A stretch of 62,797 nucleotides of DNA, counting the filler, from Sphaeroforma arctica JP610 (taxonomy: Eukaryota): assembly GCF_001186125.1 (NCBI RefSeq). It is 4 parts of 3 records of this genome, joined end to end, with 100 filler letters (N's around TTAATTAATTAA, not from the genome) between each part and the next. Parts side by side here need not be neighbours in the genome. Positions count along the whole stretch, not along the records: positions 41,453 to 59,689 come from NW_014040525.1; 3 more parts are not named here. The stretch is one strand, 5' to 3'. The position numbers were made by a program, and so were the translations under genes. The notes beneath the pieces are model-generated. The model ran no database searches. It was not told where the DNA came from and worked only from the letters and a program-made list of their open reading frames with translations. Shown here piece after piece: positions 41,453-43,150 of this stretch. Position 1 is the stretch's first letter. The number at the start of each line of letters is the position of its first letter.

Positions 41453-43150
41453 TTTCCGCGATTACTTATACGGAACAGCTTTTACGCTGATGTGTGATCA
41501 GAAGTCCCTTCAATATATGAAGGGAATGAAGCCAGACTCTCAATTACTGAGTCGACGGCATGATACACTATCAAAGTTTCATTTTGATATCAAACATCTA
41601 CCAGGGATACATAACCATTTACCGGATATGTTATCACGCTTTGTACCGGACTTTAATAAATTCGTACGTGAGTTACTAGCCACTGATTGGAAATGTAACC
41701 CCAGGTGGTTTGAACTGGCTCAAAAGATATTTGTGCCACATACAGTTGACATGTTCGCTGCACATCATAATGCACAACTTAAGAATTACCGGACTTTAAA
41801 TTATCCTCTAGGAGATGCCTTTCAATTAGACCTCTTCGAACATAATGCGTGGGCTAATCCACCATGGCAGTTAATTGCCCAATTACTAAATTATGTTCAT
41901 ATACACAAAGCTACCATCACGTTGTGCTGCCCAATACGGAGTAAAAATCTATGGCTCAATACATTATTAAGCATGATACAATGCGAGCCAATATATTTAG
42001 ATAGGGAAGCAGATACTTTCCTATATCAGGGTACCCGAGCTCTCCAGAAGACGCCCTGGAGACATACTATAATATGTCGTATAGGTCCCATTGGAACAAC
42101 CAAATGGACCCCTACTGAGACCTTCCTTAACGAGGTCAAAGAGTCAGAGATCCCACTCTCTACCAAATTGAACGTTAAGCAGTTCAAAGGCAACACAGAA
42201 CTTGAAGTATGTGGACAAGAAATACAATCTACTAATGACACTAAAGTTAAGTAGCGTCAGTCTCTTGCTAGGACTCTGTTTAACAACATAAAGTCCAAGT
42301 CCGAAGTCTTTCAAACCCTATTTTTAAAGGGATTGATGAACGACAATCCCGAAGCATATACACATATAATGCAACTGTTAAATAAGTCAGGTGTATCAAA
42401 CGCACACGAGCGCACTCATGACACTCATGCAAAAGAAGGACAGGAGTCTGGAAACACTACAGACTTAGAGACCACGCAAGTGGATTCTCAACACCCTACC
42501 TTCATTCTGGAGGAGTAGAATGATGAAAACATTCTTGCTTGGCTGACGCAAAACCATAAGCTGAAGCACCAGAACGTAGTAGACGCACTTAAAGATGCTA
42601 AGCGAAATGGGATCGCGCACCTTAAGCTGGCAACTTTAATTGACAGAGTATATCAGTTATGTACAGACTGTGATCTCAACCAGATGAAGCGCTATGGGCT
42701 CGCACCACTTACTAGTGTGACCGAAGATGTTCCATGGTGCAGGGTCATCATTGATCTGGTTGACCTGCCTACGTCCGAGCACACAGGCGACCGTTACGTA
42801 TGCCACTTCTTTGATGTGGCGTCACGGTTTAGCTTGCTCTATCCATTAAAGGATAAGAATACGCAGACCGTGGCAGAATTATGTTACCAAGTCTTTGCTG
42901 ATCACAATGACCGGGTATAATGTGTACTATTAACAGTAGCGAGTTCTACGATGACGTAATGGAATCGTTAGTACTCGTATCAGGCATATGAAAAAAGGGG
43001 TGTACCATATAAACCGCAAACACAAGGCGCGAATGAAACGCGCCATAGAAGACTTAAGTTCTTCTTACGTACTGAATTAACGGATGATACAGATGATTGG
43101 CCGTACCACCTTAAGTGGGTACAAACTCAGATGAACGAGTGTGCTGATCC
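41453..43150 (+). mobile_element. Ty3/gypsy-type pol remnant: RNase H C-terminus, Dam-like N6-adenine MTase, integrase (HHCC and DDE)
   Basis: RH end YLYGTAFTLMCDQKSL...FHFDIKHLPGIHNHLPDMLSR. MTase DWKCNPRWF...TVDMFAAHHN...DAF...WANPPW...CP (41685-42085). Integrase HKLKH...CTDC, PWCRVIIDLVDLP, DVASRF, TINSSEF (decayed TDNGSEF), YKPQTQGANE. One frame to 42920 with in-frame stops at 42252, 42516 and 42918. Confidence 0.88.

What the first reader, a model, noticed from the sequence alone, without database searches (positions are those of the whole stretch)
41453..43150. Gypsy-type LTR retrotransposon with a Dam-like N6-adenine methyltransferase between RNase H and a DDE integrase
Seen: one reading frame (ORFs 41490, 42333 and 42684 share a frame and are split only by point stops). 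It runs from a gypsy-type RNase H end (DQKSL...IKHLPG..N...DMLSR) into DW...F...TVDMFAAHHN (41748)...DAF...WANPPW (41856-41867)...CP, then after a linker into an HHCC finger and DDE integrase core. Known: DxFA...NPP(W/F) is the phage-Dam-like N6A-MTase signature, and in retroelements it is described after RNase H in DIRS elements, which use a tyrosine recombinase rather than a DDE integrase. Inference: this is an integrase-using LTR lineage carrying its own adenine methylase, which could mark its cDNA or insertions with 6mA (for example to evade silencing or mimic active chromatin). I do not know of a description of this architecture, but cannot check.
Basis: partly seen in the sequence, partly recalled or inferred. 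Interest (0 to 1): 0.9.

Follow-up and report, generated by a model that had tools for sequence, protein, structure and literature searches.

The report
Broken gypsy retrotransposon carrying adenine methylase
This is a dead fragment of a gypsy-type jumping gene that carries a phage-like adenine-methyltransferase domain between its RNase H and integrase; the design is real and intact in relatives, but a 2026 preprint already describes this lineage, and the idea that the domain methylates the element's own DNA is likely rather than shown.

Summary
The architecture is real but already described. Window 41454-43157 encodes an RNase H end, a Dam-like (PF05869) domain with DxFA and NPPW motifs, a linker and an HHCC/DDE integrase. 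It is collinear with intact protease-RT-RNaseH-Dam-integrase proteins P0001 and P0002 (50% and 45%). All three domains have the same nearest relatives, so it is not a nested DIRS/gypsy chimera. The Dam model (pLDDT 93.7) best matches phage N6-adenine methyltransferases (TM 0.72-0.78) and, among solved structures, PCIF1/CAPAM (Z 10.9). Named relatives come from Sphaeroforma arctica, Abeoforma and Pirum, the three species of the 'Ichthyosporean DAM-LTR lineage' in bioRxiv 10.64898/2026.05.21.726589. This copy is dead: stops, two frameshifts, one integrase aspartate lost, 3' truncation, 5' end at an assembly gap. Two additions: intact members carry a divergent C-terminal chromodomain that the preprint says the lineage lacks, and a second, more decayed RT-RNaseH-Dam element lies about 1.4 kb downstream. 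LTRs, expression and methylation were not testable. The scan has noted this kind of element on other DNA (23 findings, at least 3 genomes).

The parts
41353..41452 (.). Assembly gap (N runs around a TTAATTAATTAA spacer); the element's 5' part (gag, protease, RT, start of RNase H) is not in the window
   Evidence: left of the gap is an 81% copy of the first exon of a ZIP transporter gene, not pol
41454..41639 (+). C-terminal half of Ty3/Gypsy-type RNase H (DQKSL ... DMLSR)
   Evidence: PF17917 E 2.7e-4; 71% and 68% identical to P0001 and P0002, DIRS-like RNase H domains score 30 bits or less against 101
41682..42083 (+). Dam-like (PF05869-type) N6-adenine methyltransferase domain, open frame, DMFA (41748) and NPPW (41856) motifs intact
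   Evidence: AlphaFold2 pLDDT 93.7; fold matches
42084..42551 (+). Poorly conserved linker with two TAG stops (42252, 42516)
   Evidence: 27-31% identity to P0001 and P0002; stops
42552..42746 (+). Integrase HHCC zinc finger (HKLKH 42555, CTDC 42660)
   Evidence: aligned to HNLTH/CTDC of P0001
42747..43157 (+). DDE integrase core, broken: first Asp (42753) and Glu (43035) present, second Asp position reads Ile, about 42911-42995 lies in another frame; homology ends at 43157, before the GPY/F and chromodomain tail of intact relatives
   Evidence: PF00665 E 3.7e-3
44600..46340 (+). Second, separate and much more decayed RT - RNase H - Dam-like element; no integrase found after it
   Evidence: own HMMs over three frames of 44001-46800: RT iE 1e-3, RNase H iE 3e-3 and 2e-2, Dam iE 1e-8 at 46082-46333; 35% to P0009 over 121 columns, E 1e-10

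Best explanation
This is a broken 3' part of a Ty3/Gypsy pol gene with a phage-type N6-adenine methyltransferase domain between RNase H and integrase, grouping with the ichthyosporean DAM-LTR lineage described in 2026, whose intact members likely put 6mA on their own newly made DNA so that new insertions would be kept in active chromatin. Shown here: the domain order, its presence in single intact ORFs, the fold, the conserved DxFA and NPP motifs, conservation of the domain at the level of RT and integrase, and the placement with Abeoforma, Pirum and S. arctica proteins (about 0.95 for identity). Inferred: the domain travels in the particle as part of Pol, attached to RT-RNase H or freed by the protease; it binds SAM; it methylates adenine in the cDNA or RNA:DNA hybrid during reverse transcription; host AMT1 then maintains the mark after integration (the preprint's model). 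A divergent chromodomain at the integrase end of intact members is predicted to help choose the insertion site. This copy cannot transpose by itself, and only its methyltransferase frame is still open.
For: P0001 and P0002 are single ORFs with protease, RT, RNase H, Dam and integrase in that order. Of 151 proteins held (P0001 plus the best 150 of 1522 hits), 19 have RT-RH-DAM-INT and 7 more have DAM followed by INT; Pfam gives RT-RH-Dam-integrase order in 15 of 30 that I picked. Among the window copy, P0001 and P0002 the Dam domain is 62-68% identical, RT 63% (P0001 against P0002), integrase pieces 43-79%, and the linker only 27-34%, as expected under purifying selection. NPP is kept in 15 of 16 clade members. 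The best fold matches among viral models are phage DNA N6-adenine methyltransferases, E 2e-8, TM 0.72-0.78, above PCIF1-like viral proteins. The Dam tree puts the window in a 19-row clade (99/96) with Abeoforma P0003, P0004 and P0014. The RT-RNase H tree puts P0001 and P0002 in a 10-row clade (SH-aLRT 98) with Abeoforma P0003 and Pirum P0035. The closest integrase is S. arctica P0017 at 75-79%. The preprint reports more 6mA-marked insertions and higher expression for DAM-LTRs than for other LTR elements in S. arctica and A. whisleri.
Against: No activity has been shown: the preprint's E. coli expression test gave no 6mA, and its 6mA link is a correlation. P0001, one of the two closest intact relatives, has CPPW in place of NPPW. 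Pirum P0035 lies in the same RT clade and has no Dam domain. Iyer et al. call the DIRS-type domains likely inactive and place them with the RNA enzyme PCIF1, which is also the best solved match. The window copy scores below Pfam's Dam cut-off (19.5 against 28.1 bits). The window has no RT, so the RT placement rests on P0001 and P0002 as stand-ins. LTRs were not seen. The host species is inferred only from the element's nearest named relatives; the host ZIP gene gave no lineage.
Confidence: 0.55

Rival explanations
1. The domain keeps the methyltransferase fold but works mostly without catalysis, as a nucleic-acid or protein binding module of Pol; the 6mA on DAM-LTR insertions is written by host AMT1 because these elements are transcribed or insert near active promoters.
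For: Negative heterologous assay; CPPW in intact P0001 while the rest of its domain is 67% identical to P0002; varied motif IV in other DAM-LTRs, such as WVFAPT, WIFPPT and YANIPF; Iyer et al. regard DIRS versions as likely inactive; a Dam-less sibling exists in Pirum.
Against: NPP is kept in 15 of 16 clade members, and the motif I Asp is nearly invariant in the 17-row alignment, which fits retained SAM binding and catalysis.
Confidence: 0.26
2. The domain is an active m6A writer for RNA, like PCIF1/CAPAM, acting on the element's genomic RNA (cap-proximal or internal adenosine) or on the RNA strand of the hybrid, tuning stability, translation or packaging.
For: Best solved matches are PCIF1/CAPAM (Foldseek E 5e-4, TM 0.68; Z 10.9, rmsd 2.8, 132 aligned), then RNA methyltransferases such as PH1948, DIMT1, Erm and KsgA (Z 8-9); E. 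coli Dam and T4 Dam score Z 8.0 and 7.9. Iyer et al. put DIRS MTases in the PCIF1 clade. An RNA substrate would explain the negative DNA assay. The preprint's main text never mentions PCIF1.
Against: Predicted structures of small phage DNA N6A-methyltransferases match better than PCIF1-like proteins (E 2e-8 against 5e-5), so PCIF1 may lead the PDB list only because that phage family did not appear among the solved chains returned. The domain lacks PCIF1's WW and helical domains. A shared fold does not fix the substrate.
Confidence: 0.15
3. The arrangement is an accident: a DIRS RT-RH-MTase piece next to a separate gypsy integrase, by nesting or mis-assembly.
For: The locus sits at an assembly gap in a repeat-rich region with another decayed element nearby.
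Against: One collinear match across RNase H, Dam, linker and integrase to two intact ORFs; each domain separately has P0001 and P0002 among its nearest full-length relatives; RNase H is gypsy-type.
Confidence: 0.02

Closest known systems
Ichthyosporean DAM-LTR lineage (Fernandez-Moreno et al., bioRxiv 10.64898/2026.05.21.726589; whole main text read, figures and supplementary figures not seen)
   Same: Ty3/Gypsy Pol with a PF05869 Dam domain; relatives from S. arctica, A. whisleri and P. gemmata; NPP motif kept; same proposed 6mA/AMT1 model.
   Different: This copy is a dead fragment. The preprint says the lineage lacks chromodomains, but 8 of 12 intact tails tested here score above every shuffled control against a chromodomain profile. 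The PCIF1 fold affinity is not discussed in its main text.
DIRS1-type retrotransposons with an MTase after RNase H (PMC5890265 and PMC4738411, passages read)
   Same: RT-RNase H-MTase order and the same DxFA / NPP[WF] domain, the likely donor according to the preprint.
   Different: A DDE integrase follows in the same ORF instead of a tyrosine recombinase in a separate ORF; RT and RNase H fall among integrase-bearing elements.
Small phage DNA N6-adenine methyltransferases (PF05869, phrog_111)
   Same: Fold (TM 0.72-0.78), motif order, similar size.
   Different: Only 13-21% identical; no tblastn match in 50,697 phage records at E 1; embedded in a retroelement polyprotein.
PCIF1/CAPAM cap-specific adenosine N6-methyltransferase
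   Same: Best solved fold match (Z 10.9, 132 residues aligned, 14% identity).
   Different: No WW or helical domain; a host mRNA enzyme, not part of Pol.
KnitGypsy-Dnmt3 and SymbioDIRS-Dnmt3 (PMC5890265, passages read)
   Same: Retrotransposons carrying their own DNA methyltransferase in Pol, proposed to mark cDNA.
   Different: Those are C5-cytosine enzymes, unrelated to this domain.

Membership tests
Ty3/Gypsy LTR retrotransposons | Pol order protease-RT-RNase H-integrase | tested here: met
   RNase H before integrase in the window; full order in P0001 and P0002
Ty3/Gypsy LTR retrotransposons | RT/RNase H group with gypsy-type elements, not DIRS | tested here: met
   Quick tree of 80 rows, P0001 and P0002 as stand-ins: 9 DIRS-like rows split off with SH-aLRT 100. 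A profile of the relatives hits Ty3 Gag-Pol best in the PDB, E 1e-150. Group labels are mine, from domain content, not from Repbase.
Ty3/Gypsy LTR retrotransposons | HHCC finger and D-D-E triad | tested here: met
   Complete in P0001 and P0002; in this copy HHCC, first Asp and Glu are present and the second Asp is lost by decay
Ty3/Gypsy LTR retrotransposons | Paired LTRs, primer-binding site, polypurine tract, target-site duplication, gag | not testable with these tools
   No genome held; 5' end in a gap; no direct repeat flanking the element in a self-BLAST of 36000-50000; no DNA of a close relative recovered
Ichthyosporean DAM-LTR lineage | PF05869 Dam domain inside an integrase-encoding Pol | tested here: met
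   17 of 17 alignment members hit PF05869 at E 0.01 or better; RH-Dam-INT order
Ichthyosporean DAM-LTR lineage | Dam domain in one clade with ichthyosporean elements, apart from DIRS and chromovirus-type DAM-LTRs | tested here: met
   Careful tree of 57 rows: 19-row clade at 99/96 with Abeoforma P0003, P0004, P0014; bootstrap not fully settled.
Ichthyosporean DAM-LTR lineage | No chromodomain (as the preprint describes the lineage) | tested here: inconclusive
   The window copy ends before that region. Whole-protein Pfam finds no Chromo in P0001, P0002 or P0003, matching the preprint's domain-scan approach, but profile and fold tests find a divergent chromodomain in the clade, including Abeoforma P0003 itself.
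Ichthyosporean DAM-LTR lineage | Host is an ichthyosporean with AMT1-type 6mA | tested here: inconclusive
   Nearest named relatives are S. arctica proteins (6 of 10 looked up); the host ZIP gene shows only 'eukaryote'; AMT1 could not be searched without a genome
Ichthyosporean DAM-LTR lineage | 6mA enrichment and expression of insertions | not testable with these tools
   No methylation or read data obtained
DIRS1-type retrotransposons | Tyrosine recombinase instead of DDE integrase; DIRS-clade RT/RNase H | tested here: not met
   Integrase follows in frame; RNase H scores 101 bits to P0001 and 30 or less to DIRS-like rows; RT tree
PF05869 phage Dam-type N6A-MTases | DxFA motif I, NPP[YFW] motif IV and the fold | tested here: met
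   the window copy is below the Pfam gathering score, relatives such as P0003 and P0006 are above it
PF05869 phage Dam-type N6A-MTases | Methylates adenine in DNA | not testable with these tools
   The preprint's assay was negative
PCIF1/CAPAM | WW domain and helical domain around the MTase core | tested here: not met
   Only the core aligns (PCIF1 492-652); no WW hit in P0001 or P0002

The most novel reading that the evidence does not exclude
Ichthyosporean DAM-LTRs are overlooked reader-plus-writer elements: a divergent chromodomain at the integrase end picks the chromatin, and the PCIF1-related methyltransferase writes m6A on the element's RNA or RNA:DNA hybrid inside the particle rather than on double-stranded DNA, which would explain the failed E. 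coli assay and correct the preprint on both domain content and substrate. The chromodomain half alone is about 0.85 likely; the RNA-substrate half is the weak one.
Probability: 0.13. Interest if true: 0.6.

Novelty: already known. Interest (0 to 1): 0.2.

Why it matters
Retrotransposons that carry an adenine methyltransferase may exploit the 6mA mark that labels active chromatin in many unicellular eukaryotes. That idea is striking but was published as a preprint in May 2026, with this lineage as one of its test cases, so this dead copy adds little. What remains open is the substrate: nobody has shown activity. The intact relatives found here give natural comparisons for that test (NPPW in P0002, CPPW in P0001, no Dam in P0035), and the divergent chromodomain is a small correction to the published description.

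Tried and rejected
No whole genome is held, so copy number, LTRs and AMT1 were not searched. Search for DNA of close relatives: the metagenome scan gave 7 loci matching only short stretches in the RNase H end (query residues 2-84), not followed up; two viral-contig scans with P0008 and P0020 gave nothing. A search with the Dam domain alone among proteins of 79-252 residues found none, and tblastn of phage records found none; neither shows absence. Self-BLAST of 36000-50000 found no LTR pair. No tRNA gene in the window. Dinucleotide and GATC counts show no bias in the element (ApT 1.03, GATC 1.12, CpG 0.86 observed/expected). The first Dam tree was a quick tree with weak deep support and could not place the second element (end branch 2.16); that row was left out of the careful tree, and domains under 95 residues were left out of both. 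P0017 and P0013 appear as 'no Dam' only because they are fragments; they are not counted as losses. The ESM Atlas look-up of the host ZIP protein gave no lineage. Paper searches found no description of Dam in integrase-type LTR elements earlier than the 2026 preprint; passages of the Chlamydomonas v6 and Ectocarpus papers concern other elements. Most subscription papers are not in that library. Expression and read support for the stops and frameshifts remain untested. Rejected: nested DIRS/gypsy chimera, TAG read-through as a special code (the copy also has frameshifts and a lost catalytic Asp), membership in DIRS or PCIF1.

Full report
Observation. The described motifs are at the stated places in one frame from 41454. 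Pfam finds RT_RNaseH, Dam (PF05869) and rve in that order, each weakly and below the curated cut-off. There are TAG stops at 42252 and 42516. The integrase core shifts frame at about 42911 and returns near 42996, with a further stop in between, and the second catalytic Asp position reads Ile. Homology stops at 43157. The 5' end is an assembly gap, and the DNA left of the gap is an 81% copy of the first exon of a ZIP transporter gene. No whole genome is held.

Is the architecture real? Yes. A search among longer proteins returned 2 hits of 232 candidates, P0001 and P0002. Both are single ORFs with protease, RT, RNase H, Dam and integrase, and they align collinearly with the whole window segment at 50% and 45%. 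An exhaustive search gave 1522 hits at E 0.001, of which the best 150 were listed. With my own domain profiles, 19 of the 151 proteins then held read RT-RH-DAM-INT and 7 more have DAM followed by INT. Pfam gave RT-RNase H-Dam-integrase in 15 of 30 that I selected. The window's RNase H scores 101 bits against P0001 and at most 30 against DIRS-like rows. Its integrase groups with P0017, P0001, P0002 and P0013 at SH-aLRT 100, and its Dam groups with P0001 and P0002 at 100/100. A nested chimera is excluded.

Is the domain a methyltransferase? By fold and motif, yes. AlphaFold2 with a 50-row alignment gave pLDDT 93.7 and pTM 0.89. Among predicted viral structures the best matches are phage DNA N6-adenine methyltransferases (E 2e-8, TM 0.72-0.78), followed by PCIF1-like proteins of giant viruses. 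Among solved structures the best is PCIF1/CAPAM (Foldseek E 5e-4, TM 0.68; Z 10.9, rmsd 2.8, 132 aligned). RNA methyltransferases follow at Z 8-9, E. coli Dam at 8.0 and T4 Dam at 7.9. The domain is as conserved as RT and integrase (62-68%) while the adjoining linker is at 27-34%, and NPP is kept in 15 of 16 clade members; P0001 has CPP. Activity is not shown by any of this.

Which lineage? Of 10 top hits looked up, 2 carry Abeoforma whisleri names. Of 10 further relatives, 6 are Sphaeroforma arctica proteins, 1 Abeoforma, 1 Pirum gemmata and 2 unnamed. S. arctica P0017 is the closest integrase, at 75-79%. In an RT-RNase H tree of 80 rows (quick method; P0001 and P0002 stand in because the window has no RT), a 10-row clade at SH-aLRT 98 holds P0001, P0002, Abeoforma P0003 and Pirum P0035, and the 9 DIRS-like rows lie apart. 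In the careful Dam tree of 57 rows a 19-row clade at 99/96 holds the window and the Abeoforma proteins and excludes the DIRS-like and chromovirus-type rows; the bootstrap had not fully settled. Labels such as 'DIRS-like' are mine, from domain content. The host is likely Sphaeroforma or a near relative; this is inferred from the element, since the host ZIP gene gave no lineage.

What is known. Fernandez-Moreno et al. (bioRxiv 10.64898/2026.05.21.726589; whole main text read; figures and supplementary figures not seen, and Fig. 2B with the domain diagrams may bear on the exact order and on chromodomains) report Dam domains in Ty3/Gypsy elements and define five lineages. [quoted passage not shown] They find more 6mA-marked insertions and higher expression for DAM-LTRs than for other LTR elements in S. 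arctica and A. whisleri, no activity on expression in Dam-deficient E. coli, and propose that Dam marks the RNA-DNA intermediate and host AMT1 maintains the mark. De Mendoza et al. 2018 (PMC5890265, passages) note Dam-like domains in DIRS. Iyer et al. 2016 (PMC4738411, passages) place DIRS MTases in the PCIF1 clade and think them likely inactive. Six searches found no earlier description in integrase-type elements. Earlier notes of this scan report the same kind on other DNA and name the same preprint; I had found the preprint before that look-up. No notes exist for this genome.

How it most likely works. Shown: Pol carries the domain between RNase H and integrase, and it is conserved. Inferred: it is packaged with RT, binds SAM and methylates adenine in the nascent cDNA or hybrid; after integration host AMT1 maintains 6mA and the insertion stays transcribable (0.55). 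Rivals: a non-catalytic module with 6mA written by the host (0.26), supported by the negative assay, CPPW in P0001 and the Dam-less Pirum sibling P0035; an RNA-directed PCIF1-like writer (0.15), supported by the PDB matches but weakened because phage DNA enzymes match better; an artefact (0.02).

One addition to the published picture. The preprint says this lineage lacks chromodomains. A profile of 9 Pfam-confirmed chromodomains from the hit list scored 8 of 12 post-integrase tails of the clade above the highest of 600 shuffles (6.5 bits); Abeoforma P0003 scored 26 bits, and profile-profile comparison gave probability 97.4, E 1e-11. The isolated P0003 stretch hits Pfam Chromo and Chromo_2 weakly (E 0.02 and 0.01), while the P0002 stretch hits nothing. 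In P0001 and P0002, the window's own family, the region is degenerate (-0.3 bits and no hit). A model of the P0002 stretch (pLDDT 82) returns chromo and chromoshadow domains in every listed row (best E 0.016, TM 0.62), but that alignment contained 7 known chromodomain rows, which favours this fold. The window copy ends before this domain.

Second element. At about 44600-46340 lies a separate, heavily decayed RT-RNase H-Dam element. Its motif IV position reads NSPF, no integrase was found after it, and its place in the tree is unsure.

Verdict. The kind and the lineage are already described, and this copy is dead. Interest 0.2. LTRs, copy number, expression, methylation and enzyme activity remain untested.

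Noticed in passing
window 44600-46340 (+): A second, much more decayed RT-RNase H-Dam-like element of a different family; NSPF at motif IV; 35% to P0009; no integrase found after it.
   Followed up: partly
P0003 1345-1395, P0018 1357-1409, P0035 968-1020, P0002 C-terminal tail: Divergent chromodomain after the integrase GPY/F region in the ichthyosporean DAM-LTR clade, which the preprint describes as lacking one; degenerate in P0001 and P0002.
   Followed up: yes
P0035 (Pirum gemmata): Full RT-RNase H-integrase protein in the same RT clade with no Dam domain (about 54 residues between RNase H and integrase): a loss or the pre-capture state.
   Followed up: partly
P0001 Dam domain: Intact 1400-aa Pol with CPPW in place of NPPW, otherwise 67% identical to P0002 in this domain.
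   Followed up: partly
P0047, P0151: Polyproteins with the order AP endonuclease - Dam - RT - RNase H - integrase, on a very long RT branch.
   Followed up: no
window 41166-41337 and 33526-33697 (+): 81% duplicate of the first exon of a ZIP zinc-transporter gene just left of the assembly gap; the main gene runs to 34721 (PF02535 E 2e-42).
   Followed up: partly
window 43601-43807 / 20195-20431 and 37525-37720 / 22145-22339: Dispersed repeats in inverted orientation (88-95% identity), probably pieces of other transposable elements.
   Followed up: no
window 38207-39061 (-): 284-aa frame with LFVNDI and KYLG, resembling (from memory) the end of a decayed non-LTR reverse transcriptase; no Pfam hit at E 1.
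   Followed up: partly
window 24503-24602, 41353-41452, 59690-59789: 100-base gaps made of two N runs around TTAATTAATTAA, an assembly placeholder with stops in all frames, so true gap lengths are unknown.
   Followed up: no
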